Virus record (IMG/VR): IMGVR_UViG_3300044898_000038
Coordinates: 1-54,706 of that record
Reading direction: 5' to 3' (one strand)
Source: a virus
Lineage: Duplodnaviria > Caudoviricetes
DNA length: 54,706 bases
The notes below the pieces were generated by a model. That model worked only from the letters and a program-made list of their open reading frames with translations, was not told the origin of the DNA and searched no databases. This document shows positions 955-53,735 of this stretch, piece after piece. A program made the position numbers and the translations under genes. Positions within the stretch are counted from its first letter, which is position 1. Every line of letters begins with the position of its first letter.

Positions 955-1914
955 TTAAGTCCCCTTCGGTTTGAAAAGATTGGCAACCCGACCCCAGAAT
1001 GTCGGCGCGAGATCGACTCGCACCTGGCCGGGCGGCGGCAGTTTGATTTCAGGCAGCTTCGGGATGACTGGTACTTCCGCCAGCGCGGCCTTGATCGCCG
1101 CGATCGTCGCAGGCCCTGCGAGGCCGTCGACGGTCAGACCTTTGCTTGTCTGGAACGCGCGGACGGCCGTGCGCGTGCCCGCCCCGTTGACACCGTCCAC
1201 ATCCAAGACCGGCGTTGTGCCGAGCTTGTTGAGCGACGTCTGCAGCCAGACGGCATCAAGGACGTCAGCCGATGGCGTCAGAGGCACCGCATTGATGTCT
1301 GGCACGATCGACGGCGACGCATCGAATTTGATCGTCGGGTCGAGTGCCATGATTGCGAGAATGAGGCCCGCAACACCCAGCTGCTTGTCGGTGACGTTTT
1401 CGATCGGGCCATGATCGACCAAGACCTTGCCACCAGGCCCTGTCGGCGGATCGTAGATCGTGGTGCCGGACCAAACGTAAGGCGACGGTCTATTTCCGTT
1501 GGCGTATTTCAGGCCGTTGTAACGCTCCTCATTGGTCAACAATCCGGCGATCGACCAATCCGTCAGGCGCGCGGCGTAGGGTGCACAGTTCACAAGCGCA
1601 TCGACCGCGCCGTCTTCAAAGGCGGTTGGCCCAAGGAACGGCCCGCGGCCGGCCGGGACGTGCGTGGTGGCGTGGCTGAGCGGATCGCCCTGCCCAAGGT
1701 TGGTTGAAAAATCCTGATTGGACTCACGGTAGTGCGCGCAGGCGATGAACAGCCAGCCTACTTCCGGCATCCCGGCGCGCTTGGTGATACTGGAATAGCG
1801 GGCCTTGTTCGCGAACGCCTTTGCGGCAGGTTTCGCAAAATCAGGCCCGCGCGTTAGTTTGGCATCTGCCCAGCGCTTCGCATTCGCTGCTTTGAGCGCG
1901 ACTAGATCGGTCAT
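955..1914 (-). CDS. Endolysin: lysozyme-family catalytic domain plus C-terminal peptidoglycan-binding domain
   Basis: HYRES...GQGDPL...ERYNG...SPYVWSGT lysozyme-like motifs. LQxxLNxLG...VDGxxGxxTxxAVRAFQxxxGLxVDGxAGPxT is a PG_binding_1 pattern. Confidence 0.85.
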   Translation of the reverse strand: MTDLVALKAANAKRWADAKLTRGPDFAKPAAKAFANKARYSSITKRAGMPEVGWLFIACAHYRESNQDFSTNLGQGDPLSHATTHVPAGRGPFLGPTAFEDGAVDALVNCAPYAARLTDWSIAGLLTNEERYNGLKYANGNRPSPYVWSGTTIYDPPTGPGGKVLVDHGPIENVTDKQLGVAGLILAIMALDPTIKFDASPSIVPDINAVPLTPSADVLDAVWLQTSLNKLGTTPVLDVDGVNGAGTRTAVRAFQTSKGLTVDGLAGPATIAAIKAALAEVPVIPKLPEIKLPPPGQVRVDLAPTFWGRVANLFKPKGT

Positions 1915-1974
1915 GATTGTGGGGTTCCATGGTGGAAGGCAGAACAGAAAAAGGAGGCCCTTACCCTTCACAGC

Positions 1975-2000
1975 AAAAACGCCGCCCCGAAGGGGCGGCG
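1975..2000 (-). terminator. Intrinsic terminator between fibre genes and lysis cassette
   Basis: Minus strand CGCCGCCCC-TTC-GGGGCGGCG followed by TTTTT. Confidence 0.8.
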
Positions 2001-2027
2001 GCTGTTCGCGTAAAAAAAAGCGATAGA

Positions 2028-2285
2028 TCAGTCTTTCTTCTCTTCACTGGCGGGCACCTTCGCCTCCAACTCCTTCACGCGAGCAAGAGCCCGCGAAAGA
2101 TCGAAGGCAACCCCATCGGCGCGCGCCTGGTGGGCGGCGGCCATGTCAAGCGCCTGATTGCGCTGCGCCTGCAACACCGGGATAAGGCGCTGCAACAACG
2201 CCGGGTCGGGCTGCTCCGCCTGCTGAGCCGATGCGCAGGGCGCAAGCAAGACGAGGGCGACTGCGATGGCGGTATGGCGGATCAT
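2028..2285 (-). CDS. Small coiled-coil protein with signal peptide (possible fibre chaperone)
   Basis: MIRHTAIAVALVLLAPCASA|QQ, then an amphipathic helix. ATGA overlap with the fibre gene. Confidence 0.7.
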   Translation of the reverse strand: MIRHTAIAVALVLLAPCASAQQAEQPDPALLQRLIPVLQAQRNQALDMAAAHQARADGVAFDLSRALARVKELEAKVPASEEKKD

Positions 2286-4846
2286 GCGTACTTTCTCCTT
2301 TGATCGGGAATATTGTCGTTGGCGCCGACGCGCCAGTTAGTGCCGTCGCAGACAACCGGAACATTGGTTGATCCGCCTGCGGCGACGACGGCTCCGATGC
2401 CAGCCGTGTAAGACGCGGCATTTGAATCGGTCACGAAGTACCTGGCGGCCTTCGCGGCGGCATTGCACGTCGGCAGGCTCCCCACCGCGACGGCGCCGGA
2501 CTGCAAGTAGCGATTGGCGAGAATGACGCCGATACCGCCATCCGTCGTGGAGCCGACCGACAGACCGCCGCTCGGATTGGCGCGCATGGCCTCGGCGATC
2601 GTCGACGAGCCGATCGGCGTGGTGAACACGCGCCAGAGCGTCCCGCGGTTCGCTCCGTAGTTTTCGGCCGTCACGAACTGGAAGTTCGCCCCGAAGCTGT
2701 AGGCGGAGCCGTCCCAGCCGTAGGGCACGATCGAGCCGAGTACCTCCCCGGACAAGACGGCCGTCTTGCTGGCAAGCGTGCCGTCCGCCCTTCGCATCGC
2801 GACGCGAGGCGCGCCGCCAAACGCGTCCATCGTCACCCACCCGTCGGTGGCATCGGCGCTGACCAGGTGCAGCAGGGCGGTGGGGCCGACCGGTGCAACG
2901 GTCGCTCCGGCGTTGGCGTTGACAGTCAGCAGGGCGTCCGGCGCGACGTTGGGGCCGATATTGAACAGCCCGCCAGTTGTAATGCGAAAGCGTTCCACCT
3001 GACTTCCGGTCAGGCCGATAATCGCATCTGTCGTGCCGGCGCCGGATGTGCTCTGCAGCGTCAGCGTAGATGCCGCGCCAGAGCCGCCTGTATGCAAGGG
3101 CGAAAGGAGGGACGTCCCGAAATAACCCGTGCGTGGCCGCGTCGCGCCAGATGCGCCAATATCGATCGTGTTGTCAGTCGAAAACAGAATCGCGCCCGTC
3201 ATCGTGCCCCCAGCCAAGGGCAATTTCAGCGCATCGTTGCCGTTGATTTTCTGTAACGCGCTCAGAATCGAATCTGCGGCCGAAACGGTTCCCGGGCCGC
3301 TCGTGTAGCCCGTGAGAACCTTTGTGATCACTGCCGCGTTGTTGATTGTCGGGTTTGGGTATGTGCCGCCAAGATCGCCACCTGCCGCACCGGTCGGCGC
3401 GGCGCCAGTAATGGCAACGGGCGCGCAAGCCGTGGCTAAGCCCTTCCCGTTCAGCGTGATCTGCGCCACATGCGTGGCGTCGCCGCACGTTCCGACATTT
3501 GAGTTCACGGTCGCAAGCGTGGTCGCGAGCGCTCCTCCGGCCGTTGTTATGTCTCCCGCCAGAGCCGGCAATTGCGATGCGAGAAGAGTACCCGAAATAT
3601 TGCTGAACGATGGCTGCGCCTTGCTGATTACCCCGGCCGTGCTGATCGCGGTCAAGAACTGGTTGCTCGCCCCCGCGTCTGCAACAACCGTGGTGCCTAC
3701 TACGCCATTCGAATCCTTGTCGTGAAAGCGCAGGCTGGTCGAATCGAACCAAGCCCAGGTCTGGCCCACCGCGGGTGCGGCCGGCGCGGCGTTCAATAAT
3801 CCCGCCAAGAAACCGATCCCCGTGTAGGTGTCAGCTTCTGATGCTTGAGTGGCGATGGTTCCAAGGCCGGCGATCGTGCCGGGAAGGCTTCCGGGCAATA
3901 CCGGAAAACCGGTGATGACGCCGCCGTTATGAATCAAGTATTTTGATCCGGTCGCTGACCCGACAAACGTCACGCCTGGCGCCGCCGACGTAGCGATCAA
4001 CCCCTTCGTGACTCCGGCGAAGAATGCAGAGAATACCGGCGTTCCTATAAGGGTAACCGTGATGCCCGGCGTCACATTGATTACCGATCCCGCGATCGGA
4101 ACATGCCAGTGGAAGATGCCCCCTCCGGTTATTGTATAGCTGTTCGCGATATAGACCGTGCCAGGGCCCGTAAGTAAGCCGGATGGAGTGGCTACCCACC
4201 CGGCCTGAATATGCCCACCCGCAGCGGCGCCATAGGTGACCCCACCTTGAATGATTGTCCCTCCATTATAGGCTGAGAGACAGTTACCCTTGGTGCCAGT
4301 CGTCGAAAGCGTCAGATTGCCGCCTCCGACTGTCAGACTTGCGCCTTGCGTTGCTGAAATTGCATCGGCATCGGTCGTTGTGATCGATGCTCCAGCAGTG
4401 GATGTGACGATGACGGATCCTGGACCTCCTATGGTTGAGTTCCCCGCACCGACAAACGTACCCGCTGCCAGTATCCCTGAAGTAAAGCTGCCCGTCAGGT
4501 CGATGGTGACCGTGAATCCATTGAGGTCGATGGCCTTGAGCAGATAGCTGACCGGTTTTTGAGGCGTCGCAAATGCGCACGCGCGAGGTATTGCGCCCGT
4601 TCCCGGATCGTTAACATTGGTAAGACCGGTGCAGTTTGTATCGCTGCCGGCCACGCGCACATAGTAGGTACGGGCGGCCGATATTCTTTCGCGCGCGAGA
4701 GACGGCACGGCCGGACCTTGAGCCGTCCCGAAATTGCCCCACACTTGGCCGGGTGCAAGCTGGCCCACGCCTTGCGCCAGAGCGGCGGGCATTAACAGGG
4801 AGGAGGCCAGAACGGCTCCCGTGAGTAGTGATTTGATTTTGATCAT
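2282..4846 (-). CDS. Long tail-fibre/adhesin-like protein with N-terminal signal peptide
   Basis: G/T/A-rich. TYYVRxxGSD beta-helix-type start, AGGDLGGTYPNPT and LPLAGGTMTG fibre repeats, C-terminal LPxC...VTD...VPVVCDGTNW module. Confidence 0.8.
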   Translation of the reverse strand: MIKIKSLLTGAVLASSLLMPAALAQGVGQLAPGQVWGNFGTAQGPAVPSLARERISAARTYYVRVAGSDTNCTGLTNVNDPGTGAIPRACAFATPQKPVSYLLKAIDLNGFTVTIDLTGSFTSGILAAGTFVGAGNSTIGGPGSVIVTSTAGASITTTDADAISATQGASLTVGGGNLTLSTTGTKGNCLSAYNGGTIIQGGVTYGAAAGGHIQAGWVATPSGLLTGPGTVYIANSYTITGGGIFHWHVPIAGSVINVTPGITVTLIGTPVFSAFFAGVTKGLIATSAAPGVTFVGSATGSKYLIHNGGVITGFPVLPGSLPGTIAGLGTIATQASEADTYTGIGFLAGLLNAAPAAPAVGQTWAWFDSTSLRFHDKDSNGVVGTTVVADAGASNQFLTAISTAGVISKAQPSFSNISGTLLASQLPALAGDITTAGGALATTLATVNSNVGTCGDATHVAQITLNGKGLATACAPVAITGAAPTGAAGGDLGGTYPNPTINNAAVITKVLTGYTSGPGTVSAADSILSALQKINGNDALKLPLAGGTMTGAILFSTDNTIDIGASGATRPRTGYFGTSLLSPLHTGGSGAASTLTLQSTSGAGTTDAIIGLTGSQVERFRITTGGLFNIGPNVAPDALLTVNANAGATVAPVGPTALLHLVSADATDGWVTMDAFGGAPRVAMRRADGTLASKTAVLSGEVLGSIVPYGWDGSAYSFGANFQFVTAENYGANRGTLWRVFTTPIGSSTIAEAMRANPSGGLSVGSTTDGGIGVILANRYLQSGAVAVGSLPTCNAAAKAARYFVTDSNAASYTAGIGAVVAAGGSTNVPVVCDGTNWRVGANDNIPDQRRKYA

Positions 4847-5397
4847 GGTGCGATCACATATTTTGCAGTGGCAGGATAAAGCTTGAAGCCGCCGTAACTG
4901 GCGGCGATGAGCAGCGGGTTGAGACCTTCGATGGTTTCAACTCCGTTGGGGATGATGGAAATGTTGTGGCCGGCGGTGGCGGCGTTGCCGGTGATATCCT
5001 TGACCTCGAGCGCACGGCCAAGCCGCGCGGCAGCGGGCTGCAGGTTGATAACGACCGGCCCGCCTGAGGAATCGACGAACAGCACACCGTCTGTCAGCAG
5101 CACGGAATAAGGCGACTGCGCAAAGGTGACCTGCGTCGGAATATCTGCCGTCAGCGCCTGCAACGCCGCGTCCAATGCTTCCATCGTCGCCAGCCGTCGC
5201 GAGGTATCGCCAAGCGGCGGCGTAGGCGCCGTCGGCTCATTGAGAAAATCGGGGCTATCGATTGGCGCGGCGCCGACAACCTCGTGGGCATCGTCGCCGT
5301 TCCAATTCGACGGCAGCAGCTCGCCGGCTGCAGCGGCCTCTTCGCTGTCCTCAAGATCGACCTGCCGCCTGTGGCGGACGATAACCTCACCTGCCAT
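4843..5397 (-). CDS. Tail fibre adaptor-like protein
   Basis: APIDSPxFxxEPTAPTP..D.S.RLAT fibre repeat, plus a C-terminal VDSSGGPVVINL...VKDxxGNA module shared with 6586-7458. Confidence 0.7.
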   Translation of the reverse strand: MAGEVIVRHRRQVDLEDSEEAAAAGELLPSNWNGDDAHEVVGAAPIDSPDFLNEPTAPTPPLGDTSRRLATMEALDAALQALTADIPTQVTFAQSPYSVLLTDGVLFVDSSGGPVVINLQPAAARLGRALEVKDITGNAATAGHNISIIPNGVETIEGLNPLLIAASYGGFKLYPATAKYVIAP

Positions 5398-5413
5398 GGT
5401 TGAATAAATCCGT

Positions 5414-6589
5414 TCAGAACTTGATGCCGCGGCGGCCGATCGAGATCGGATTGAGCACCGGAAATGCCGTGCCGGTGCCCATATTGCCCGTGGTGCCGCC
5501 TCCCGTCGTGCCGCCTCCCGTGGTGCCGGTGCCCGTCGTGCCGGTGCCCGTGGTGCCGCCTCCCGTGGTGCCGGTGCCCGTGGTGCCGGTGCCGGTCGTG
5601 CCGGTGCCCGTCGTGCCAGTCACGCTTATTGTCCCGCCGTCCAGCGCCAGCGAGAACGCGCCTCCATTGTTGGAGCCCTGAGAGATTTTTGTGGCGACTG
5701 AGGATCCGGTCTGCGCAAACCCCTGTACCGGTACGGACAGCGCATTCTGGTTGAAACTGCTTGAGACCGACAGCGACGGAACGCTCAGTCCCGGAACACT
5801 CAGTCCAGGTACACTCAGTCCAGGTACACTCAGTCCAGAAACGCTCAGCGACGGAATACTCAGGCCCGGAACACTCAGTCCAGCGACGCTGAGACCGCTT
5901 GCAGGCAGATAAGTCGTGGAGATACTCCGGCTCTGCGAGCCGCACAGCCCGATAACGGTCGCATCGCAGCCACTGCCTGCCGATGTAATGACGTTCGCCG
6001 TGGCCGCGCCCTGATTGTCGAGCGCGACAAAGGCGCGTCCATTCGAGATCGGCAATCCGAACGTTGTCGCACCATCACAAATGCCGTAGCTGGTGCTGAC
6101 GACGGAAAACAGCGCCGCATAGAGTGTACGCGAGACGCAGCTACCGTCTTCGATCATGACACCGCGCGGCGTCGCGCTGCCGCGAAACTCGACGGTGCGT
6201 CCGATCGGCGTCATGTCGATCGGACCGACGATTTCTATGGTCGAACCGTTGTACATCACCGTCATAGTGACGCCGGCCTGCAGCTCGCCCCCGGAGAGCG
6301 GCTGCAACCCGATACTGGTTGGTCGCCGCACCGCTATCGGTGAGAGCCCGCCGATCGCTATCGTCGCGGGCCCCGTGTTGTCCGTGGCCGGAACGTAGCG
6401 CAGCGGCACGCCCAGCACATTGCTGAGGCTCTGCACATTGCGGATCGCGATCGTCTGTGCGTTGGCCGATCCACCCCCGGCGCCGCCCCAGGTGCTCTGC
6501 GCCTCGAATGCAAGCGCGCTATTGACGAGCGCGAACAGCAGCCCGCACAGCAAGGCAAAGCGTGCGGAGACTTTCCGAAAATTCATCAT
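5414..6589 (-). CDS. Tail collar-domain fibre protein with signal peptide and pentapeptide repeats
   Basis: PIG...F.G...P.G....DGS.VSRT.YAALF...YG..DG.TTF.LP is the phage tail collar motif. Confidence 0.85.
   Translation of the reverse strand: MMNFRKVSARFALLCGLLFALVNSALAFEAQSTWGGAGGGSANAQTIAIRNVQSLSNVLGVPLRYVPATDNTGPATIAIGGLSPIAVRRPTSIGLQPLSGGELQAGVTMTVMYNGSTIEIVGPIDMTPIGRTVEFRGSATPRGVMIEDGSCVSRTLYAALFSVVSTSYGICDGATTFGLPISNGRAFVALDNQGAATANVITSAGSGCDATVIGLCGSQSRSISTTYLPASGLSVAGLSVPGLSIPSLSVSGLSVPGLSVPGLSVPGLSVPSLSVSSSFNQNALSVPVQGFAQTGSSVATKISQGSNNGGAFSLALDGGTISVTGTTGTGTTGTGTTGTGTTGGGTTGTGTTGTGTTGGGTTGGGTTGNMGTGTAFPVLNPISIGRRGIKF
5489..5623 (-). repeat. 15-bp tandem repeat x9 encoding G(T/G)GTT-type units
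   Basis: Counted directly in DNA and protein. Confidence 0.9.
5768..5902 (-). repeat. 15-bp tandem repeat x9 encoding VPGLS-type units
   Basis: Counted directly in DNA and protein. Confidence 0.9.
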
Positions 6590-7458
6590 GTCGAACGGCT
6601 CCAGATGCGGGTGACGCCATCGGTGTAAAAGCGAAACGTTGTGCTTTGAAAATCGCGGTCCATCACAAAGTTGGCGGCGCTCGCAATGGTTTCGCCGGCC
6701 GGCGCCACGACCGTCGCGTTGGCGGCTTGCAGATTGCCGGCGACGTCTTCGATGATCACGATCTGGCCGTTGCTGGCGCCTGCCGGGAGATTGATCGTCA
6801 TCGCCGCGACGCCAGCGGTGCGGAACAGCGCAATCGCGCGTTGCTGCAAAGTCAGGTTGAGTGTCGAACTGGAGGTCACGATCTCGGCCGCATTACTGAA
6901 CGCCGCCGGCATGTCGACGAGTTGAAAATTGCTGCCGTCAAACTCGAACGTTGAAATTCCAGCCCCAATTAGATCGCGCCGCTGAAGTCCCGTGTTATCC
7001 TTGCGGATAATGGTGTTATTGCCGAGCCCGTTGAAGTTGATGGTAGCAGCACCTGTGTTGTCATGCGCAACGCCCACGCTGATGCGCATACCGACCTTGT
7101 ATTCCAGCACAGGCGGAGACAGATTGACCACCAGATGGTTCGGAGCGCCGATGTCAAAGCCGAACGATGGCTGACCGCGTTGAATCAGTTGCTGGATCGC
7201 CCGCAACGCCATCGTGTCGTCGGAATTATCTTCGGTGACGATGTTCGCCAGCGCGGCAGTCTGCCCGTTGCCGCGGATCAGCGCACGTAACTGGCCAAGC
7301 AAGCCGTTCATAAATCCTGCGTTGATACCCGTGCCGTCACCGGCGCCGGGCGATGAACAGTCTTTGCCGTAGGTATCGGCACCGCTGAACACGCGGCTGT
7401 CAGCGGGTCGCGTGACAACGACGTTCGGGGCGTTGCTGCCAAATCCAAGCAGGTCCAT
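6586..7458 (-). CDS. Baseplate-anchored tail fibre protein (Mu gp49-like position)
   Basis: Follows the gp48-like gene. G.GT.I.A.F.N...L..LI anchor motif and a DNTGAATINFNGLG module. Confidence 0.75.
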   Translation of the reverse strand: MDLLGFGSNAPNVVVTRPADSRVFSGADTYGKDCSSPGAGDGTGINAGFMNGLLGQLRALIRGNGQTAALANIVTEDNSDDTMALRAIQQLIQRGQPSFGFDIGAPNHLVVNLSPPVLEYKVGMRISVGVAHDNTGAATINFNGLGNNTIIRKDNTGLQRRDLIGAGISTFEFDGSNFQLVDMPAAFSNAAEIVTSSSTLNLTLQQRAIALFRTAGVAAMTINLPAGASNGQIVIIEDVAGNLQAANATVVAPAGETIASAANFVMDRDFQSTTFRFYTDGVTRIWSRST

Positions 7459-7467
7459 GATGTTCCT

Positions 7468-8166
7468 TTAGGCGGTTCGGTAGACGACGGCGACGTGGGC
7501 ATGCACGATGCGATCAAGCAGGCAGACCAGCGGTGAAAAATCAGGATCGCAGTTAAGGGTGTTGCCGAGCTGGAACGCACCCAGCTGCGGTCTGGTTTCG
7601 ATCTGACCCTGAAACGCCGGGCTATTCTCAAGATCAACGATGACGCGGATGGTGGCGGCGCCGCCCTCTCCGCCAAGCCCAACATTTCCCAACTGAAATG
7701 TGCCGATCTGGAAACAGATCGCGCTAAACAACTGCTCACACGCGATCGACCAGCCGGCGCGCGCCGCGACCTCCAGATAGTAGACACAGTCGGTGCCACC
7801 GAGTGCCGATACCTTGGCGCAGAGATCGGGAAACGGATCGCAGGCATCGGGCAGTCCGTATTCTTCAAGCCATAGATCGCGGGTTTGGCTCTGCGTCACG
7901 CACCAAAACTCAAGCCGCAGCGCGCACAGCAGTTGTGTCAGCTGGTAGAAATAATCCGCCACTGCCGACCAGAACGCATGCATCCCGCTCAATGGTCGAT
8001 CGAGCGTCTGGAACAGGCCAGGCTGTGCGAACCTCGGCTGCGCCATCGTCACAGTGTAGGCCTGCCCGGCCGGCTCGTTGCTCTGCCAGGCGTTGCCGCG
8101 CGGCAGCAGCATCAAGAGCTGGCGAAAAATCTGCAGCTTGCTCGGACAGCGGAACGCAGCTCTCAT
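7468..8166 (-). CDS. Baseplate wedge protein (Mu gp48/DUF2313-like)
   Basis: LLPRGNAW and W.EEYGLPD.C motifs, C-terminal ..HAHV.V. Start reassigned by ATGA overlap. Confidence 0.85.
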   Translation of the reverse strand: MRAAFRCPSKLQIFRQLLMLLPRGNAWQSNEPAGQAYTVTMAQPRFAQPGLFQTLDRPLSGMHAFWSAVADYFYQLTQLLCALRLEFWCVTQSQTRDLWLEEYGLPDACDPFPDLCAKVSALGGTDCVYYLEVAARAGWSIACEQLFSAICFQIGTFQLGNVGLGGEGGAATIRVIVDLENSPAFQGQIETRPQLGAFQLGNTLNCDPDFSPLVCLLDRIVHAHVAVVYRTA

Positions 8167-9290
8167 GTAAAGCTCACCGGCCCCAATGTTGCAACTTCCC
8201 CGGTCGACAGCGCTATGTCGCCTGCCGGCGCAAGCAGCACATGACGTTTTTGGCCCGCCGCATTCGAGATCGCCTGTCCTATCCATTCCCGTGAGAACGA
8301 TTGCCCGGTCGCCAGATAAGGCATGCCGTCATGCTCGGTATCGTTGCCAGCGACAGCGGACAGCCGCCGGAACGCCGCTCCAAGCTCGGCGATGATCGCC
8401 TGCTGCACCGCTGTGGTATTCGGCGAAAGAGCATTGATGATGACCGGCACCGGCACCGCGATCGGCGCCGCAACCGTGACCGACGCACCGGCCGGCGCCA
8501 CCATGTCGATATAGTCCTGCACCCGCGCGATATCCGCGACGGACGGGACGCCGTCGGCGTAGCGATCGTCCATCATCACAAACACGCGCACCGTGCCGGC
8601 GCCGATCCAGCGCCGCTCGACATAGACGCGAGTGACGCCCGATACCGACGACGCCCACAGCACGTAATCGGCCGGCGCGCCGCCGTGCGGCGGGTTTCGC
8701 TTGCGAAACAGTATCCTGCCGCGGAACGTCGACAGGTCTGAGGTGAATGGCTCACCGTCGTCTTCGACATCATCCCCAGCGACAATACCGTCGGTGCCTA
8801 CCACTGCCGTCGCCACACCTGTGACACCTGAAGTAATCGCCAGCGGCGTTGCCGCGATGGCGTTGCCGGCCTTGCCATCCACTGCGGCAATGACATCGAC
8901 GTCGAGCGTTCCGGCACCGCCCAGTGATGTTGCGGCCGATGCGAGATAGCGAAACCCGTCGCCACGGGTGAAAACCGCGCCGTTATCGACGCTAACGGCC
9001 GCAGGCGCCGTCAACGTCACCCTGCCGGACGCCGGCGCTGCCGGTCGTTTGGTGAGGCCAACTTCCGCGCCGTGCAGCACGAGGTTTTCGCCATCCGCCG
9101 TCAGCGCGAATTTCTGCCGCGAGATATAGCTGGCAAACCCCATGATTTCCGAACCGACGCCGGCCATCACCTTCGCGGCGACGGCCATGTTGTTCGGCCA
9201 TATCCATGCGTCGCTGCCCTTCAGATAGCTGCGCAGCGATTTGCGCGCTATCTCCGCCAGCGCGGCCAGGTTCGGAAGCGCAAAGCTCAT
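8163..9290 (-). CDS. Baseplate J-like protein (Mu gp47)
   Basis: G.D.EDD...R.R....R.PPHGGA..DY..WA..V.GV.R motif. Confidence 0.92.
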   Translation of the reverse strand: MSFALPNLAALAEIARKSLRSYLKGSDAWIWPNNMAVAAKVMAGVGSEIMGFASYISRQKFALTADGENLVLHGAEVGLTKRPAAPASGRVTLTAPAAVSVDNGAVFTRGDGFRYLASAATSLGGAGTLDVDVIAAVDGKAGNAIAATPLAITSGVTGVATAVVGTDGIVAGDDVEDDGEPFTSDLSTFRGRILFRKRNPPHGGAPADYVLWASSVSGVTRVYVERRWIGAGTVRVFVMMDDRYADGVPSVADIARVQDYIDMVAPAGASVTVAAPIAVPVPVIINALSPNTTAVQQAIIAELGAAFRRLSAVAGNDTEHDGMPYLATGQSFSREWIGQAISNAAGQKRHVLLAPAGDIALSTGEVATLGPVSFT

Positions 9291-34713: not shown

Positions 34714-37700
34714 TCATGTCCGTTGGGGGGGGGTATTGACGGCATCGAACGTCGCCAGGTCGAACAGCTGCGGCGTTGTCATCTTTTCTTCGGCGATCCG
34801 GAGATAATGAACGCCATCAAGAAAATACTTGCTGTTGAGCTCGACAGCTGCACCCCGCCGTCCTTTAAGGATCGCGCGATATGGCACGGTCATGATCCCG
34901 CCGAAGGGGTCGTAAATCAGATCACCCTCGTTGGAGTATCGATCAATCAGCCGGTCTACCGTGTCGAATTGCAGCGGGCATATGTGCTTTTCGCGACCCT
35001 TGGCCGCCTGGTACATGTTCAGCGTGCGCATCCGGTCGACATCGTCCCAGATATCCGGATGCCAGGAGCCCGGCGCGAGACACATGAACTTGGTTGGTAG
35101 CCGACCGCGACGCTCGAGCTCTTCCCCGATCCGAACATGCTCTTCATAGTCGTAGATCACATTCCGCGTGGAGTTCGGAAACAGCCGCGACATCGTTTCC
35201 GGGCCCAGCGCAAGCAATTCGTCCATGGTCAACACGCGGTTGCCGCTCGATCGCCAGAACGCGTGCGCATCAATCTGCCAGCGTGCGCGGGAATAACCGG
35301 TACCCGGGATGATCGGAAGCTTCTTGTCGAACGACACGGCATTGCCCTCGGCGTCGGTGCACATCGGCTTTTGTTTGGTGACGCGAATATCAGCCCAGCC
35401 GCGGCTCTTGTCGGTTTGCGGCTTGCGGAAGAGCAATACCTTTTCCGGGCAGCCGACGCCCATGGTGGTGGAATCTTCCGCGTTCTTGCTCCATCCGAGC
35501 CGGTAATTGCCGGCGTTTTCGGTGACCACGTCGGTCAGGATTGATATCTCGCCGCAATACTGAAAGCCGTGGGCGCGATAGTGCATGATGGCTTCGCAGT
35601 GGAACGGGTAGACCGTTGGAACGCCCTCACCGGTGACGCTGCCGAATTCAATCTCGTCCTTGACATGGATGCAGGCCATCCGGCCGGGCTTCAGCATCCG
35701 CAGCAATTCAGCGGTGAGAAAATCCATTTGGCCCCAAAAGTGGCCGGCATCTTCGGTATGGCCGAAGTCGTTGTAGCTTTCAGCGTATTCGTATTTCTGC
35801 AGGAACGGAATCGAGGTGATGATCTGGTCGACCGAGTTGGCTACCCAACCCTTAGCCTCCGCGACGGTGTCATTGTTGACGGCGATAAACCTCTCACCTC
35901 TGATCTCGACGCGCTTCACGCCGATCGAGCGCGCCAGCGCGTCGCGCATCGGCAAAGTGTTGAGACCGTGCGCACGGATGATCGCGATCATCCGCGTGCG
36001 CATCTCGGTATCCTGCGCCAGCTTGCGTTCCAACGCCGCGCGGCCCTCGCGCTGATCTTCCGAATAGATCATGTGCGCCTTGACCGGCTTGGTTTGACCG
36101 TAGCGCTGCAGCCGCTTGATCGCCTGATACCAGAGTTCGAACTTATAGCCGTCGCCGGGCATGCCGACGAAGATCATCATATTACAGTGATACTGGAAAT
36201 TCGATCCGAGCCCCGACAGGATAGGCTTGGTGCCAAAGTCTTTGATCAACCCCTCTTCGAATTCGATGAGGCGCTTTTCGCGGGTGTCCAAGTCCATCCC
36301 GGATCCGGTGATGGTGACGATGCCGGGGACTGCGGATTCTAGCGCCAAACGCTCGGCTTCAAGGTCATGCCACCACAGGCAATGTTCGTCCGGCGTCTCC
36401 GCCTTGATTGCAACGGCCTTTGCCACACGCGCCGACAGACTGTCGCGACGAGAAGAAGCCGCCGCAGAAAGTCCCTGCGCAGCGTTCCGGAACAGGATGC
36501 CCTGCCCGTCACGGTCAGGCGAGGCCTTAGAGTGGTCTGCCGCTACCTCATGCCAGACCACCTCGACCGGCGGAAGATCATAACCTTCGTCGGAATAACC
36601 AAGGTCTGACGGCCGCTGCACGAACGCGGCCCACGAGTGTACCCACATCCAGAATTCATTGACCATATGCGGGTAGAGCGTGAGATTTCCCGCCTGTTCC
36701 GTATCGCGCTGAAAGAAACGTGTCAGCGCTTGACCGGTGTCCATCACACCGAGGAAGCCGGCATAATGGATTAGCTCCTTGAAGCGGTTCGGCGCCGGCG
36801 TCGCGGTTGCGACCAGCTTGAACGGCACTTTAGAAAAGAGAGGCAAGAATTCCTGAAATGTCTTGCTGCCATAGGAGCGTAGCACGCTGGCTTCATCTAG
36901 CGAGGTGGCGGCAAACAGGTTTGGGTCAAGCTTGCCGTCGCGGATCGGCTCGTAATTCGTCAGATAGTGCTCACAGCCGGCGACCATCTGATCTGGATGT
37001 TCGATGTATCTGGCATTGATACCGAGCGCGGCAGCATCCTTGATGAAGGAAACTGCCATATCGAGCTTCTGTTCGGCTTCATTGATAAAGCCGTGACGGC
37101 AGCCGAGCGGCAACACATTGAGTGTCGGGCCGCCAGTATGCTTGCCGAGCCGCCTTGCCCATTCCAGCTGCATCGCTGTCTTGTGCAGGCCGCATTCGGC
37201 GAAGATCGCGGCGCAGCCGAGCCGGAGCGCCCACACGACGATGTCCTTGTTGAAATCCTTCAGCCAGGGGTGCAGCGAGGCGCGCTCGATTTCAATGCCG
37301 CGGTACGGCGTGCTTACGATCTTGTCTTCGAGGAAGGCGTCATAGGACGGCCATTCGATTGCGAGGTCGTCGTCATCGGAAAGGGGTGCGGCACTCTCTC
37401 CGGCTGAAAGTTCCGCAGGCGCACACGCTTCACACCTCACATCGGCAACGGAGCCTGCGCCAATTGGCGCACCCTGTTGCGTTCGTGCTTGTATGCCGGC
37501 GAGATACTCATCACGCAAAGACGAACCCGCGCCATCAGGGGACAGTGACGGCACGGGCTCTGATCGCAGCTGCGGGGAAACATCTGCGATGTTGGATGCG
37601 CCCGCACCTTCGAGGGCCAAGGAAGAAGATGCGGGCGCCGGCGCGGACGCTAGCCGTTCCATGCCGTTGGTGATTGTTTCTGACGGGCCGGACGCTACGC

Positions 37701-38733
37701 CGGCTGCCTGCTTTTCTTGCGAAGCTCCGCTTGATAGGCCCGCCGCTCGCGTCTGTTCCCGTGATGGTTCGGAACCACTTTGTTCTGTCGCGCCATCATC
37801 TCCTGCTCTCGCTCCTGAGACGCCTTCATCGAGGCTATCAGGTCTTCCTGTTTCTGGTTGCAGATGTTGCGAAGCATTTCCATTGTCGATGATCTCCTCT
37901 GTTAGCTTACGTCGTGGTTTTTTCGGCTTTGCAATTGGTTGTCCGCGCCCGTCGACCTTCTCCGGCAGATGATCGAACTTCTGCAGGTGCGCCTCGATCG
38001 CGGCGTCCATGCGCTCGTGGTCGCCGCCAGGGAAAACGAAGATGTGCCCGCAGCTGCAGGTGCCGACCGTCTTGACGGCACCGGCCAATACCGGGTTGGT
38101 CATGGAGAACGTGTGGCCGGCCGGATAGACCTTGCGCGCACGATGTGCGGTGACCAGTTCGGCGACGATCGGGTCTGACGGAGCGGGCGAGACGCCATTC
38201 TCGCATTGTGTGGCCGCTATAACGGGCGCCAAAGAGCCGACACCATCGGGCATCCTACGCGCCGCTGCGCTGTGATCGCTGCTTACCCCTTCTATTTCGC
38301 AGGCCGTTTGCGTTGACACTGCCGAAGTCATGGCAGGCGGTACGGGGCACGCTCCGTCAGATTTCCCTTCCGGCTTAATGCTCAACGCCCATTCGATTAC
38401 CCGACCGCCAAGGCCTTCGCCCCAGTGAATGCCTTCATCTTCCTTGGCGCGGATGTATTTGCGGGCTTTGCGGATCAGGCCTGCGATGGCGTGACGCATA
38501 GCGTCTTCACGCGGAAAGAAACGGACACTCTCGACATGGAACGGATGCACAAGCCACGATCCATCCTCGAGCTCGAGTACGCCGAACCGCGCCGCCGGCG
38601 AACGGTCGCGATCGTAAAAGAACATCTCGCCCTGCTCGTCGCGGAAGGCGAGCCCTCCGATGCCGAGCGGAGGCTCGCCGGCGGCGTTGCGGAGGATGGG
38701 GGTTGCGGGTGTGGTGCGGGCGGGAGCGTTCAT
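34714..38733 (-). CDS. SF2/SNF2-like helicase fused to N4/N6 DNA methyltransferase, with long N-terminal extension
   Basis: FAECGLHKT, LDEAS, TATPAPN helicase motifs; TSIPF (motif IV), HICPLQ, DPFGG (motif I) beta-class MTase. Confidence 0.88.
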   Translation of the reverse strand: MNAPARTTPATPILRNAAGEPPLGIGGLAFRDEQGEMFFYDRDRSPAARFGVLELEDGSWLVHPFHVESVRFFPREDAMRHAIAGLIRKARKYIRAKEDEGIHWGEGLGGRVIEWALSIKPEGKSDGACPVPPAMTSAVSTQTACEIEGVSSDHSAAARRMPDGVGSLAPVIAATQCENGVSPAPSDPIVAELVTAHRARKVYPAGHTFSMTNPVLAGAVKTVGTCSCGHIFVFPGGDHERMDAAIEAHLQKFDHLPEKVDGRGQPIAKPKKPRRKLTEEIIDNGNASQHLQPETGRPDSLDEGVSGARAGDDGATEQSGSEPSREQTRAAGLSSGASQEKQAAGVASGPSETITNGMERLASAPAPASSSLALEGAGASNIADVSPQLRSEPVPSLSPDGAGSSLRDEYLAGIQARTQQGAPIGAGSVADVRCEACAPAELSAGESAAPLSDDDDLAIEWPSYDAFLEDKIVSTPYRGIEIERASLHPWLKDFNKDIVVWALRLGCAAIFAECGLHKTAMQLEWARRLGKHTGGPTLNVLPLGCRHGFINEAEQKLDMAVSFIKDAAALGINARYIEHPDQMVAGCEHYLTNYEPIRDGKLDPNLFAATSLDEASVLRSYGSKTFQEFLPLFSKVPFKLVATATPAPNRFKELIHYAGFLGVMDTGQALTRFFQRDTEQAGNLTLYPHMVNEFWMWVHSWAAFVQRPSDLGYSDEGYDLPPVEVVWHEVAADHSKASPDRDGQGILFRNAAQGLSAAASSRRDSLSARVAKAVAIKAETPDEHCLWWHDLEAERLALESAVPGIVTITGSGMDLDTREKRLIEFEEGLIKDFGTKPILSGLGSNFQYHCNMMIFVGMPGDGYKFELWYQAIKRLQRYGQTKPVKAHMIYSEDQREGRAALERKLAQDTEMRTRMIAIIRAHGLNTLPMRDALARSIGVKRVEIRGERFIAVNNDTVAEAKGWVANSVDQIITSIPFLQKYEYAESYNDFGHTEDAGHFWGQMDFLTAELLRMLKPGRMACIHVKDEIEFGSVTGEGVPTVYPFHCEAIMHYRAHGFQYCGEISILTDVVTENAGNYRLGWSKNAEDSTTMGVGCPEKVLLFRKPQTDKSRGWADIRVTKQKPMCTDAEGNAVSFDKKLPIIPGTGYSRARWQIDAHAFWRSSGNRVLTMDELLALGPETMSRLFPNSTRNVIYDYEEHVRIGEELERRGRLPTKFMCLAPGSWHPDIWDDVDRMRTLNMYQAAKGREKHICPLQFDTVDRLIDRYSNEGDLIYDPFGGIMTVPYRAILKGRRGAAVELNSKYFLDGVHYLRIAEEKMTTPQLFDLATFDAVNTPPQRT

Positions 38734-39437
38734 GTGCAGCCCGGTCCGCCGCCGAGAGCGTTTTCCAGTACAAGGCGGGCATTATGCCCAGCCGAACGCG
38801 CTGGGTGACCCAGTACACGTTCCGCCGCTAGGTCGCAGGCCTGCGCCATCGCGATGCGAAGACGCTGGATTTCACTCTCCGCATTGACCGCACGCGTCAT
38901 CTGCTCTTCGCAGCGCGCTGCCATTTCCATGGCGTCATCTTTCCACGTAACGCGCCACAGCGGCTTGTCGCAGTTCGGACAATTGTCGCCAGCGTCATCG
39001 CGCGCCGTGACCGCCCCGTCGCTTGCGTTGAGGTTCATTTGCGAGAGCACAAATTTGCATTTCGGGCAGCGCCATTGACCGGGTACGAATACTTGATCGG
39101 CCGGCGGCTGCTCGCCCTTCACGAGCGCAGCGACAAAGGCCGGCTCACGATACGGGTGAAGATCGGCCGAAGGCGGATATCGACCCGGCGGAACTATATC
39201 TTGCCGCGCGAGACTGCCCCGCATGATGTCGAATACGTTCTCATCATGCTTGCCGTGACGTTCGAACAGAACAACCACCTGATAGTAGGCATCCGCCTTT
39301 CTCAGGCGATGGTGCACGGCCAGCGGCTTGTCTTTGGCCGCCCAATGCTCCGCTTGATGCATCAGGCTACCGATTTCGCGCCGATAGTATGCGCCGACCA
39401 GCGATGCCATATCGGATGCGAAAACGCTGTCGTTCAT
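38730..39437 (-). CDS. Zinc-ribbon-containing hypothetical protein
   Basis: CPKC...CPNC. Confidence 0.65.
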   Translation of the reverse strand: MNDSVFASDMASLVGAYYRREIGSLMHQAEHWAAKDKPLAVHHRLRKADAYYQVVVLFERHGKHDENVFDIMRGSLARQDIVPPGRYPPSADLHPYREPAFVAALVKGEQPPADQVFVPGQWRCPKCKFVLSQMNLNASDGAVTARDDAGDNCPNCDKPLWRVTWKDDAMEMAARCEEQMTRAVNAESEIQRLRIAMAQACDLAAERVLGHPARSAGHNARLVLENALGGGPGCT

Positions 39438-39808
39438 TGCATCGGCCCCGTCGCAAGCGAAACCGACCGCACGCCGCCACCCTGCCCCGCAAGCCGCTGA
39501 TCGAGCGCGCTGCGGCCCGGCAGCGGGTCTCCGAAGAATTCGGCCGTGATACTGCGATGCTGCGGGCGCGTGTTGCGGATTGCTTTGGCTAACGCGGTTG
39601 CGTGCTGGCGCTGAATGCGTTGCTTCGAAAGCTGCTCAGGCGTGCCACCGCGTTTCAGGAAATGGTACTGCACCTTGCAGGCCCAACGCGTGCGCTGAAG
39701 GCGCACGCCGATGGCGCCCCACTCTTCGCCCTTGTCGCCGGCGGCGGTCAGCGCGGCGTTCTCTTCGGCGGTCCAGAGTTCGCCCCTGCGTTCCAATCCG
39801 TCGATCAT
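39434..39808 (-). CDS. Myb/SANT-like HTH protein
   Basis: WT.EE...L......W..I...L.RT..AC; GDP.PGRSAL tail. Confidence 0.6.
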   Translation of the reverse strand: MIDGLERRGELWTAEENAALTAAGDKGEEWGAIGVRLQRTRWACKVQYHFLKRGGTPEQLSKQRIQRQHATALAKAIRNTRPQHRSITAEFFGDPLPGRSALDQRLAGQGGGVRSVSLATGPMQ

Positions 39809-42027: not shown

Positions 42028-42281
42028 CACTCCGCAGCCTCGCGCATCATCCCGACGCCGCCGAAATGCCATTCGACCGGATAACCTGCGACCTGTTGAG
42101 GCCTGGGCAAGCTCCACTGCGCCTCAGCGCAGCCGGCATAGACGTGGAGTTCGCCGTCTCCGAGCGCGATGGTGAAGCTGCCGGAGGGCGCGCCGTGGGT
42201 TTCGATAATGTCCATTAGCCAGCGGGCGCCGAACTCGAGTTCGTCGCGCTTCAGCGCCGCGCGCGGGCGGGAGAAGTTCAT
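42027..42281 (-). CDS. Hypothetical phage protein
   Basis: Coupled ORF starting MNFSRP. Confidence 0.55.
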   Translation of the reverse strand: MNFSRPRAALKRDELEFGARWLMDIIETHGAPSGSFTIALGDGELHVYAGCAEAQWSLPRPQQVAGYPVEWHFGGVGMMREAAE

Positions 42282-44349: not shown

Positions 44350-44354
44350 CGCCC

Positions 44355-53689: not shown

Positions 53690-53735
53690 GGCTCGCTATA
53701 CGCTTCGCGTGCGCCGCCTTCAACAACTCCCGGGC

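What the first reader, a model, noticed from the sequence alone, without database searches (positions are those of the whole stretch)
2028..6589. Tail-fibre-module proteins carry Sec signal peptides and Cys pairs: possible periplasm-matured fibres
Seen: three genes of the fibre cluster start with textbook signal peptides: MIKIKSLLTGAVLASSLLMPAALA|Q (854 aa), MMNFRKVSARFALLCGLLFALVNSALA|F (collar protein) and MIRHTAIAVALVLLAPCASA|Q (85 aa). Each ATG overlaps the upstream stop (ATGA), which supports these starts. The mature collar protein has 4 Cys in two local pairs, two within the collar motif (DGSCVSR...YGICDG); the long fibre has 7. The other two module genes (4843-5397, 6586-7458) have no signal peptide. 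Established: tailed-phage virions assemble in the cytoplasm, so fibres normally lack export signals. Inference: these subunits are exported, folded with disulfides in the periplasm and docked onto cytoplasmic adaptors at lysis. Alternatively they act on the lysogen surface as adhesins or receptor decoys.
Basis: partly seen in the sequence, partly recalled or inferred. Interest (0 to 1): 0.85.

Follow-up and report, generated by a model that had tools for sequence, protein, structure and literature searches.

The report
Phage tail fibres carrying export signals
A prophage encodes receptor-binding tail-fibre subunits that carry conserved secretion signals and disulfide-type cysteines, yet are predicted to dock onto fibre adaptors made in the cytoplasm, so the virus particle may only be completed when the cell lyses.

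Summary
Three minus-strand genes start with Sec-type signal peptides (SPs): 5414-6589, 2282-4846 and 2028-2285. Each ATG overlaps the upstream stop as ATGA, and the Cys counts are as stated.

The SPs are conserved.
- 78 of 120 collar homologues carry one, with Ala at -1 in 63 of 75.
- 70 of those 78 keep at least 3 of 4 cysteines. 38 of 42 SP-less homologues have none, including a 45%-identical SP-less relative.

In 9 of 9 non-redundant contigs, across three baseplate types, the SP-collar gene overlaps the stop of an SP-less gene. That upstream gene ends in a conserved domain weakly like the CBA120 TSP4 / T4 gp10 adaptor domains.

A 3+3 complex model places the mature N-terminus (residues 28-34) on that domain. 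Score 0.93, best control 0.00.

The domains have virion-fibre folds. The 854-aa protein has a tailspike-like beta-helix.

My best reading is two-piece fibres whose distal subunits mature in the periplasm and join at lysis (about 0.45). Export and virion incorporation are untested. No cultured relative was found.

The parts
6586..7458 (-). 290-aa SP-less proximal fibre/adaptor. The N-terminal part matches the baseplate type. The middle domain (131-181) resembles the collar protein's N-domain. The C-terminal domain (about 186-290) is conserved in all related loci.
   Evidence: The profile of this family weakly hits CBA120 TSP4-N (E 0.0046) and T4 gp10 (E 0.04-0.08). The predicted docking surface is residues 241-247, 259-270 and 290.
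5414..6589 (-). 391-aa collar protein. It contains an SP (codons 1-27, nt 6509-6589), a fibre N-domain (28-125), a Collar domain with 4 conserved Cys, Ser/Thr/Gly-rich repeats and a conserved C-terminal strand.
4843..5397 (-). 184-aa SP-less second adaptor. Residues 1-75 are conserved. The C-terminal domain resembles that of the 290-aa protein and comes in two types that go with the partner's mature N-terminus.
   Evidence: tail-fibre PHROGs; E 0.003 against the 290-aa C-terminal domain; alignment A2.
2282..4846 (-). 854-aa fibre/tailspike-like protein. It contains an SP (codons 1-24, nt 4775-4846), a right-handed beta-helix (54-335), a fibre repeat whose ends are Cys454 and Cys474, and a C-terminal domain with Cys794 and Cys833.
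   Evidence: The same SP and mature N-terminus are present in L003.
2028..2285 (-). 85-aa protein consisting of an SP (codons 1-20, nt 2226-2285) and one long helix. It is the last gene of the operon and its function is open.
   Evidence: AAGGAG box, ATGA overlap; one homologue, P0245; P0245 also has an SP. The gene is absent from L003.
1980..2000 (-). Intrinsic-terminator-like hairpin (9 G-C pairs followed by a T run) that closes the tail/fibre transcription unit.
   Evidence: No sigma-70-like promoter was found in 1800-8400 (0 found, against 2.0 +/- 1.4 in shuffles).
7468..9290 (-). Baseplate genes immediately upstream: a gpI/Mu gp48-like protein (7468-8286) and Baseplate_J (8163-9290).
   Evidence: PF04865, E 1.5e-53; phrog_203, phrog_6.
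5485..5881 (-). Two 15-nt-period tandem repeat arrays inside the collar gene (5485-5617 and 5777-5881). They encode the TGTGT-type and GLSVP-type repeats.
   Evidence: The same repeats occur in the SP-less relative P0150.

Best explanation
The fibre module encodes two two-piece receptor-binding fibres.

Each proximal piece (290 aa and 184 aa) has no signal peptide. It is made in the cytoplasm and is assumed to mount on the Mu-like baseplate. It ends in a small trimeric docking domain.

Each distal piece (the 391-aa collar protein and the 854-aa beta-helix fibre) is translated from a start that overlaps the stop of its adaptor, and it begins with a Sec/SPase-I signal peptide. The distal pieces are exported and the signal peptide is cut after Ala-x-Ala. 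The conserved cysteine pairs are oxidised in the periplasm.

Cleavage creates the conserved mature N-terminus, which is the surface that plugs onto the adaptor's docking domain. Adaptor and distal piece are then in different compartments, so they can only meet when holin lesions or lysis merge cytoplasm and periplasm. Fibre attachment would therefore be the last step of assembly, at or after lysis.

The 85-aa exported helical protein may be a periplasmic helper for the 854-aa protein.

Shown: sequence features, conservation, gene order, folds, and a modelled interface. Inferred: export, cleavage, disulfides, virion incorporation and timing.
For: (a) SP features.
- There is a positive n-region, a hydrophobic core and an Ala-x-Ala site.
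- 78 of 120 collar homologues were flagged as SP-bearing.
- 75 of the 120 show the conserved mature-N-terminus motif. Among those, -1 is Ala in 63 and -3 is Ala in 51, and the median hydrophobic core is 16 residues.
- The hydrophobic core varies in sequence while the residues right after the cut are conserved.

(b) Cysteines go with the SP.
- Of the 78 SP-flagged homologues, 63 have 4 of 4 Cys and 7 have 3 of 4.
- Of the 42 unflagged homologues, 38 have 0 of 4.
- P0150 is 45% identical over 326 residues, including the same repeats. It has a non-hydrophobic N-terminus with no SP and has A, G, I, V at the four Cys positions.

(c) Cassette.
- In 9 of 9 non-redundant contigs (the window, L003-L007, L084, L091, L093) the SP-collar start overlaps the stop of an SP-less gene. 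The overlap is ATGA in 8 and GTGA in 1.
- The C-terminal roughly 100 residues of that upstream gene are conserved while its N-terminus changes with three baseplate types.

(d) Complex model.
- Adaptor residues 185-290 x3 were modelled with collar residues 28-130 x3. The score was 0.93 and the best of 3 controls scored 0.00.
- In the tool's calibration this mark was reached by 58 of 80 solved complexes and 2 of 110 mismatched pairs.
- The runs agree in at least 97% of contacts and the partner's pLDDT is at least 92.
- Contacts are at collar residues 28-29, 31-32, 34 and 50-59.

(e) Virion-fibre ancestry.
- The family profile hits the cyanophage A-1(L) tail fibre 8kec (E 1.7e-7) and the Pa193 gp47 tail fibre 9b45 (E 2.3e-6).
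- Foldseek gives 9b45_2 at rmsd 2.3 A over 89 columns, and weaker rows for T4 gp37 and gp12.

(f) The adaptor domain profile weakly matches CBA120 TSP4-N and T4 gp10. Their XD domains are docking modules for other trimers (PMC8825819, abstract and passages).

(g) Second pair.
- The 184-aa C-terminal domain comes in two types. These go with two types of partner mature N-terminus in 4 of 4 loci where both are visible.
- The 854-aa residues 54-335 form a right-handed beta-helix, with Z 18.1 to 12 against glycosidases, lyases and phage tailspikes.

(h) The host flank holds an AcrB-family gene, so the host has a periplasm.
Against: - No experiment or proteome exists. No cultured phage has a full-length homologue.
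- I recall no tailed phage known to export a virion protein, so the prior is low. Four literature searches found no precedent.
- The SP/Cys association is largely one clade and is phylogenetically confounded.
- The complex model used my own shallow alignments (9 and 41 rows) and a 3+3 design unlike the tool's calibration. It may also pass from memory of gp10-gp12-like solved complexes. It supports binding but does not show it.
- The adaptor-domain match maps to TSP4 residues 108-174. From the linker positions quoted I read this as inside XD1. The authors say XD1 cannot dock trimers when it is internal.
- In L006 the docking domain itself carries an SP and has no baseplate-binding part. The pair can therefore exist wholly outside a virion.
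- Most beta-helix-domain homologues have no SP: 124 of 150 were unflagged.
- A GTG at codon 27 of the 854-aa gene, just after the cut site, could give an SP-less form.
- Joining only at lysis would have to compete with dilution.
Confidence: 0.45

Rival explanations
1. The proteins are exported but are not virion parts. These late-expressed, fibre-derived proteins would act in the envelope of the infected cell. They could bind or cut the receptor polysaccharide in the periplasm, or after release. This would keep progeny from sticking to debris or block superinfection. On this reading the phage's own receptor-binding proteins are the 290-aa and 184-aa proteins.
For: - The SPs and Cys are conserved.
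- A receptor-binding protein and its receptor blocker are expected to travel as a cassette. T5 Llp and the Cor lipoproteins are recalled examples, not checked here.
- The beta-helix fold is shared with the periplasmic depolymerase VexL (6fi2, Z 14.9).
- L006 has both partners with SPs and no baseplate-binding part.
Against: - The modelled, confident docking of the mature N-terminus onto the SP-less adaptor (0.93 against 0.00) has no role in this reading.
- The stop/start overlap with the adaptor in 9 of 9 loci suggests matched production.
- SP-less one-piece relatives such as P0150 look like ordinary fibres.
- No lipobox is present, and the proteins are far larger than known blockers.
- No internal promoter-like site was found.
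Confidence: 0.3
2. The hydrophobic N-termini are not used for export during infection. The fibres would fold and assemble in the cytoplasm in the usual way, with the N-terminal helices buried in the junction or removed otherwise, or with an SP-less form made from an internal start. The cysteines would then be structural or bind metal.
For: - All known tailed-phage assembly is cytoplasmic (general knowledge).
- A GTG lies at codon 27 of the 854-aa gene.
- AlphaFold models the collar SP as a confident helix (pLDDT 86-92 for residues 1-20).
Against: - The family keeps a textbook SPase-I site: Ala at -1 in 63 of 75.
- The collar gene has no usable start between codons 13 and 52.
- The four Cys are lost exactly in the SP-less relatives.
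- The modelled interface starts at residue 28. This leaves little room for three uncleaved helices. That point is inference and was not tested.
Confidence: 0.15
3. They are lysogenic-conversion adhesins shown on the lysogen's surface. On this reading they are moron-like genes expressed from the prophage.
For: - They sit at the end of the tail operon, where morons often lie.
- Fibre-like, SP-bearing surface proteins are common in bacteria. Many DUF5907-repeat homologues have SPs.
Against: - The five genes are packed with overlaps or a 16-nt gap.
- No promoter-like site was found.
- There is a single terminator after the last gene.
- All 9 contexts are tail modules.
Confidence: 0.1

Closest known systems
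T4 gp10-gp12 and the branched tailspike complex of CBA120 (TSP4 XD domains), and G7C gp66-gp63.1
   Same: A trimeric adaptor carrying small beta-domains serves as a dock for the N-terminus of a separate trimeric receptor-binding protein. The adaptor and the docked protein are adjacent genes. T4 gp12 also has a collar-type receptor domain. Basis: PMC8825819 abstract and passages, the weak profile match and fold rows for T4 gp12 and gp37.
   Different: In those systems every subunit is cytoplasmic and none has a signal peptide (recalled). Here the docked subunits carry conserved Sec signals and conserved Cys pairs. The sequence match to XD domains is weak (E 0.005-0.08). I read it as mapping to XD1 rather than to XD2/XD3, which are the docking domains.
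Virion tail fibres of cyanophage A-1(L) (8kec) and Pseudomonas phage Pa193 gp47 (9b45)
   Same: The collar domain and the N-domain of the 391-aa protein match these solved fibres by profile and by fold.
   Different: The matches cover single domains only (TM scores 0.15-0.22 over the whole model). Those chains are parts of ordinary fibres. Whether they lack SPs was not checked here.
Phage-encoded exported proteins next to receptor-binding genes (T5 Llp, Cor of phi80/N15, lambda Lom/Bor) and lysis proteins that use Sec (spanins, SAR endolysins)
   Different: Those are small lipoproteins or membrane proteins with no fibre domains. The proteins here have no lipobox, are 391 and 854 aa long, and are built from virion-fibre and tailspike folds.
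Tailspike depolymerases and periplasmic beta-helix depolymerases (for example VexL, 6fi2)
   Same: Residues 54-335 of the 854-aa protein form a right-handed parallel beta-helix. Z is 18.1 (5mqp), 16.7 (phage Andhra), 15.3 (Pam1 tailspike) and 14.9 (VexL).
   Different: Only the fold is shared. Catalytic residues were not examined. The beta-helix sits directly after the SP, not after a particle-binding domain.

Membership tests
Sec-type (SPase I) signal peptide | Positively charged n-region, hydrophobic core of about 7-20 residues, and small residues at -3 and -1 | tested here: met
   Met for all three proteins by inspection and by my own heuristic. In the family, Ala is at -1 in 63 of 75, Ala is at -3 in 51 of 75, and the median core is 16 residues. 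SignalP was not available.
Sec-type (SPase I) signal peptide | Actual export and cleavage | not testable with these tools
   This needs reporter fusions or N-terminal sequencing.
Lipoprotein (SPase II) signal | Lipobox [LVI][ASTVI][GAS]C at the cut site | tested here: not met
   The collar and 854-aa SPs have no Cys at the cut. The 85-aa protein has L-A-P-C, with Pro at -1, which does not fit (by inspection). The lipobox pattern is recalled.
Tat signal | Twin-arginine motif in the n-region | tested here: not met
   None of the three N-termini has an RR pair (by inspection).
Phage Tail Collar domain (PF07484) | Match above Pfam's gathering score | tested here: met
   E 1.1e-10, 41.8 bits against a cut-off of 24, over residues 130-184.
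T4 gp10-like XD adaptor domain | Recognisable homology to XD domains of gp10 or TSP4 | tested here: inconclusive
   Profile A4 gives E 0.0046 to TSP4-N residues 108-174 and E 0.036-0.077 to T4 gp10 residues 74-138. No structure of this domain was predicted alone.
T4 gp10-like XD adaptor domain | Docks the N-terminus of another trimer | tested here: inconclusive
   The complex model scored 0.93 against a best control of 0.00. This is a model only and may reflect likeness to solved complexes.
Tailspike / polysaccharide depolymerase | Right-handed parallel beta-helix | tested here: met
   The model has pLDDT 86.5. Z is 18.1 to 12.1 over about 200-240 aligned residues against beta-helix enzymes and tailspikes.
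Tailspike / polysaccharide depolymerase | Catalytic residues or activity | not tested
   No active-site comparison was made.
Virion structural protein | Presence in purified particles | not testable with these tools
   No cultured relative with a proteome was found.
Receptor-blocking lipoproteins (Cor/Llp type) | Small outer-membrane lipoprotein | tested here: not met
   There is no lipobox. The sizes are 391 and 854 aa, with fibre folds. The family definition is recalled.
Spanin (for the 85-aa protein) | An uncleaved N-terminal membrane anchor (i-spanin) or a lipobox (o-spanin), located in the lysis cassette | tested here: not met
   The protein has a cleavable-looking Ala-Ser-Ala site and no canonical lipobox. 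It lies before the operon terminator, not in the lysis cassette. The spanin definition is partly from PMC3556154 passages.

The most novel reading that the evidence does not exclude
A lineage of contractile-tailed prophages of diderm bacteria builds its virions in two compartments. Heads, tails and fibre adaptors assemble in the cytoplasm. The receptor-binding tips are secreted by Sec, trimmed by signal peptidase and disulfide-bonded in the periplasm. They snap onto the adaptors through their newly made N-termini only when the holin opens the inner membrane. This would be the first export-dependent step in tailed-phage morphogenesis. It would also be a way for phages to equip fibres with disulfides.
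Probability: 0.4. Interest if true: 0.92.

Novelty: new variant of a known kind. Interest (0 to 1): 0.8.

Why it matters
Tailed-phage assembly is treated as purely cytoplasmic. If receptor-binding subunits are matured in the periplasm, several things change.
- It adds an assembly route.
- It explains how fibres could gain disulfide stability.
- It makes the host's Sec, LepB and Dsb systems into host-range and burst-quality factors.
- It affects how fibres of such phages must be expressed for engineering: with export, not in the cytoplasm.
- It matters for annotation, because pipelines may discard SP-bearing proteins as non-structural.

If the proteins are instead exported decoys or receptor-destroying enzymes, that would be a new, large, fibre-derived class of such factors. 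Either way the cassette of an SP-less adaptor plus an SP-bearing partner is conserved across three baseplate types and gives a direct experimental handle.

Tried and rejected
- Gene-call artefact or downstream start. Rejected for the collar gene. It has no usable start between codons 13 and 52, and residues 28-51 are conserved as protein. Left open for the 854-aa gene, which has a GTG at codon 27.
- Lipoprotein or Tat signals. Not met.
- Spanin role for the 85-aa protein. It has the wrong position and no lipobox.
- Homologue searches for the 85-aa protein gave one hit. The Atlas search gave only generic long-helix look-alikes, with scores of 0.78 or less.
- Host or organism naming led nowhere. 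Two genome-contig scans found nothing. The cluster look-up gave no organism names. The genome search does not draw relatives for a virus record.
- The metagenome scan added only 5 loci.
- Cultured relatives. tblastn against 50,697 phage records gave only collar-domain matches, at most 41% query coverage among the 25 rows listed and none reaching 80%. It gave one partial hit for the 854-aa protein: Acidovorax phage AP1, a 364-aa SP-less fibre. It gave 4 weak hits for the 290-aa protein and none for the 184-aa protein.
- Foldseek on the beta-helix model gave no row at E <= 0.001. VIA-align found the fold.
- Cys pairs in the DUF5907-like repeat occur in 5 repeats, all in SP-flagged proteins. However, 131 repeats in SP-flagged proteins lack the pair, and 0 of 60 repeats in unflagged proteins have it. 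This is too weak to use.
- Literature. Searches (listings and abstract starts), plus passages of PMC3556154, PMC2628397, PMC2647930 and PMC5384007, gave no report of a signal peptide on a tailed-phage fibre. Supplements were not available.

Full report
WHAT THE WINDOW IS. The window is an IMG/VR virus record of 54,706 bases that CheckV rates about 91% complete. It carries a lambda-type large terminase and portal and a Mu-like contractile tail, with a tape-measure candidate, Baseplate_J and a gpI-like wedge protein. A lysis cassette with a PG_binding_1 endolysin lies at the left end. At the right end are a DTW-domain gene and the C-terminal part of an AcrB-family pump. These are host genes, so this is a prophage of a diderm bacterium.

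THE OBSERVATION. Five tightly packed genes lie on the minus strand between the baseplate genes and an intrinsic-terminator-like hairpin at 2000-1980.
- 6586-7458: 290 aa, no signal peptide (SP).
- 5414-6589: 391 aa, SP, Collar domain PF07484.
- 4843-5397: 184 aa, no SP.
- 2282-4846: 854 aa, SP.
- 2028-2285: 85 aa, SP.

The three SP-bearing genes start with ATG inside ATGA, overlapping the upstream stop. A crude SP heuristic of my own flagged 7 of 58 called genes. By my reading of the N-termini printed, three of the other four flags look like false positives and one is a lysis membrane protein. No sigma-70-like promoter site was found in 1800-8400, against 2.0 +/- 1.4 in shuffles. This is consistent with one late transcription unit, although the host's promoters may not fit that consensus.

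ARE THE SIGNAL PEPTIDES CONSERVED? Yes.
- Collar protein: 120 homologues were listed and 78 were flagged as SP-bearing.
- Mature N-terminus: 75 of the 120 have the conserved motif within the first 80 residues. Among those, -1 is Ala in 63 and -3 is Ala in 51, and the hydrophobic core has a median of 16 residues.
- Pattern of conservation: the hydrophobic core varies freely in sequence, while the residues directly after the cut are among the best conserved in the family. This is the pattern expected of a cleaved signal. It is not expected of a mis-called start.
- Downstream starts: the collar gene has no usable in-frame start between codon 13, inside the SP, and codon 52, inside a conserved domain.
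- 854-aa protein: its closest N-terminal relative, in L003, keeps both the SP and the same mature N-terminus while its C-terminal part differs.
- 85-aa protein: its only homologue also has an SP.

CYSTEINES GO WITH THE SIGNAL. Of the 78 SP-flagged collar homologues, 63 have all four cysteines and 7 have three. One has two, two have one and five have none. Of the 42 unflagged homologues, 38 have none at these positions. The four exceptions have truncated or odd N-termini.

The most telling case is P0150. It is 45% identical over 326 residues, including the same Ser/Pro and Thr/Gly repeats. It starts with a non-hydrophobic N-terminus without an SP, and it has A, G, I, V where the window's protein has its four cysteines. 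This contrast is partly confounded by descent, because most SP-bearing members form one clade. Even so, it fits a domain that has adapted to fold in an oxidising compartment.

A side observation points the same way. A motif of the GD-N-S ... A-S-T-A-F-V type, found in the fibre-like proteins examined here, carries a cysteine pair when it sits directly after an SP cut. This was seen in 7 SP-flagged proteins plus P0277. It was not seen in 12 internal occurrences or in one early occurrence in an unflagged protein, P0299.

A CONSERVED CASSETTE. I collected 9 non-redundant contigs holding a family member with flanking sequence. They are the window, L003, L004, L005, L006, L007, L084 (identical to L092), L091 (identical to L086, and overlapped by L087) and L093.
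- In all 9, the SP-collar start overlaps the stop of the upstream gene. The overlap is ATGA in 8 and GTGA in L006.
- In all 9, that upstream gene ends in the same domain of roughly 100 residues as the 290-aa protein.
- The N-terminal parts of these upstream proteins differ and go with three different baseplate gene sets. That is the layout of an adaptor: a variable end for the particle and a constant end for a partner.
- Downstream there is a large fibre-like SP protein in 6 of the 9 contigs (854, 772, 977, 1115, 691 and 990 aa). It is probable in 2 more if an internal start is used (L007, L093). It is absent in L006.
- In the window's own group this second SP protein is preceded by the 184-aa SP-less protein. 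That protein's C-terminal domain resembles the 290-aa protein's (E 0.003).
- That domain occurs in two types, and these coincide with two types of partner mature N-terminus in 4 of 4 loci where both can be seen. Linkage alone could produce this.

WHAT THE DOMAINS ARE.
- Collar protein: the family profile hits two solved virion fibres. These are cyanophage A-1(L) (8kec, E 1.7e-7, collar part) and Pseudomonas phage Pa193 gp47 (9b45, E 2.3e-6, N-domain). The AlphaFold model is confident for the N-domain (pLDDT above 90 for residues 30-125) and moderate for the collar part. Foldseek returns the same two fibres, with 9b45_2 at rmsd 2.3 A over 89 columns, then weaker rows for T4 gp37 and gp12.
- Adaptor domain: its profile weakly matches the N-terminal assembly region of CBA120 tailspike 4 (E 0.0046) and T4 gp10 (E 0.036-0.077). 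Both proteins are platforms on which other trimeric receptor-binding proteins dock (PMC8825819, abstract and passages). I read the match as falling in XD1. The authors regard XD1 as a spacer when it is internal. Here the domain is terminal, so its far face is free.
- 854-aa protein: residues 54-335 fold as a right-handed parallel beta-helix (model pLDDT 86.5). Z is 18.1 to 12.1 against glycosidases, polysaccharide lyases and many phage tailspikes, and also against the periplasmic depolymerase VexL.
- Spread of the beta-helix domain: 1,893 library proteins match it at E <= 0.001. Among the 150 best, 26 were flagged SP-bearing and 124 were not, and the printed N-termini of many unflagged ones look like ordinary fibre starts. 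The one cultured-phage match, Acidovorax phage AP1, has the domain at the end of a 364-aa SP-less fibre that is followed by a fibre assembly gene.

So the same receptor-side domains occur both on ordinary cytoplasmic fibres and behind signal peptides.

DOES THE EXPORTED PIECE BIND THE CYTOPLASMIC PIECE? I modelled three copies of the adaptor domain (residues 185-290, alignment A4, 9 rows) with three copies of the mature collar N-domain (residues 28-130, alignment A1, 41 rows).
- The score was 0.93 in each of three runs, and the best of three controls was 0.00.
- In the tool's calibration this mark was reached by 58 of 80 solved complexes and 2 of 110 mismatched pairs.
- The runs agree in at least 97% of their contacts, and the partner's pLDDT is at least 92.
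- The interface uses collar residues 28-29, 31-32, 34 and 50-59. It therefore begins at the very residue that signal peptidase would expose. On the adaptor it uses residues 241-247, 259-270 and 290.

The caveats are real. My own alignments were used. The 3+3 design is unlike the calibration. Solved gp10-gp12-type complexes may be remembered by the model. The result supports binding and does not show it. It does explain why the first residues after the cut are so conserved. It also makes an uncleaved signal at that junction hard to accommodate, which is inference.

MECHANISM PROPOSED. The module encodes two two-piece fibres.
1. The proximal pieces, without SPs, are made in the cytoplasm and mount on the baseplate.
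2. The distal pieces are co-translated from overlapping starts and exported by Sec.
3. They are trimmed after Ala-x-Ala and oxidised in the periplasm.
4. Their new N-termini are the plugs for the adaptors.
5. The two can meet only when holin lesions or lysis merge the compartments, so fibre attachment is the last step.

As I recall, fibre or tailspike addition is a terminal, self-driven step that works in vitro for T4 and P22. This makes such a scheme physically possible, though dilution after lysis is a cost. I put about 0.85 on export being real, about 0.7 on adaptor binding, and about 0.45 on the whole chain.

RIVALS.
(1) Exported but not virion parts (0.3). These would be fibre-derived proteins that mask or cut the receptor in the envelope. 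L006 favours this, because there the docking domain itself has an SP and no baseplate-binding part. The VexL-like fold also favours it. The modelled docking and the stop/start coupling to the adaptor argue against it.
(2) Signals not used, with ordinary cytoplasmic assembly (0.15). A GTG at codon 27 of the 854-aa gene could give an SP-less form. The collar gene offers no such start, and the conserved cleavage site and the SP-linked cysteines argue against this reading.
(3) Lysogen-surface adhesins (0.1). The tight packing, the lack of promoter-like sites and the single terminator argue against it.

KNOWN OR NEW. Segmented and branched receptor-binding complexes with gp10-like adaptors are known. 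Exported phage late proteins are also known, such as spanins, SAR endolysins and small receptor-blocking lipoproteins (partly, otherwise recalled). I found no report of Sec signals on tailed-phage fibre subunits. That rests on four full-text searches (listings and abstract starts) and on passages of four papers. Supplements were closed, and subscription journals are not covered. No cultured phage in the 50,697-record collection has a full-length homologue, so no virion proteome bears on this.

I rate it a new variant of a known kind. If the two-compartment assembly is real, it would be a new route of tailed-phage morphogenesis.

LIMITS. No SignalP was available, there were no model coordinates for Cys distances, there is no host identity and there are no expression data. 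The gene calls in related loci come from my own simple caller and were checked by hand only around the cassette.

Noticed in passing
L006:9540-10861: In this 15.8-kb viral contig the adaptor is reduced to an SP plus the conserved docking domain (126 aa). It is followed by an SP-collar gene with a GTGA overlap. A hub-like gene lies upstream, but no gpV/W/J/I-like genes are present. This may be a domesticated, fully exported version of the pair.
   Followed up: partly
window 6590-6603 and the equivalent sites in L003-L093: The invariant Trp-Ser near the C-terminus of the adaptor is encoded by TGGAG(C/T). This also places a GGAG Shine-Dalgarno-like box 10-14 nt before the collar start in 8 of 9 loci. 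L093 has TGGGG instead.
   Followed up: partly
window 4766-4768 (codon 27 of the 854-aa gene): An in-frame GTG lies two codons after the predicted cleavage site, with only a poorly spaced AAGG before it. It is a possible internal start for an SP-less isoform.
   Followed up: no
window 5485-5617 and 5777-5881: Two 15-nt-period tandem arrays in the collar gene encode Thr/Gly-rich and Gly-Leu-Ser-Val-Pro repeats. They are low-confidence in the model and are shared with the SP-less relative P0150. They could be length-variable spacers or sites of periplasmic glycosylation, which is speculation.
   Followed up: no
window 34714-44412: Three large genes in the early or accessory region carry DNA methyltransferase domains: N6_N4_Mtase in a 1339-aa protein, C-5 methylase in a 770-aa protein, and MT-A70 in a 526-aa protein.
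   Followed up: no
window 52955-54704: Host flank with a DTW-domain gene and the last roughly 300 residues of an AcrB-family pump running off the contig end. By my estimate the prophage boundary lies near 52.5-53 kb. No integrase domain was found in the four nearby genes I scanned.
   Followed up: partly
proteins P0003, P0023, P0093, P0097, P0251, P0253, P0331, P0277: These are SP-bearing fibre-like proteins in which the mature N-terminus starts with a fibre motif of the GDNS...ASTAFV type, here bracketed by a Cys pair. Copies of the motif elsewhere (12 internal, one early in P0299) have no Cys. This suggests that SP plus disulfide at the docking end is a recurring design.
   Followed up: partly
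L087:4498-5124 and L005:11489-12034: Further small SP-bearing genes (208 and 181 aa) lie downstream of the large SP fibre in related loci. They are in a position comparable to the window's 85-aa gene, but I did not test them for similarity to it.
   Followed up: no
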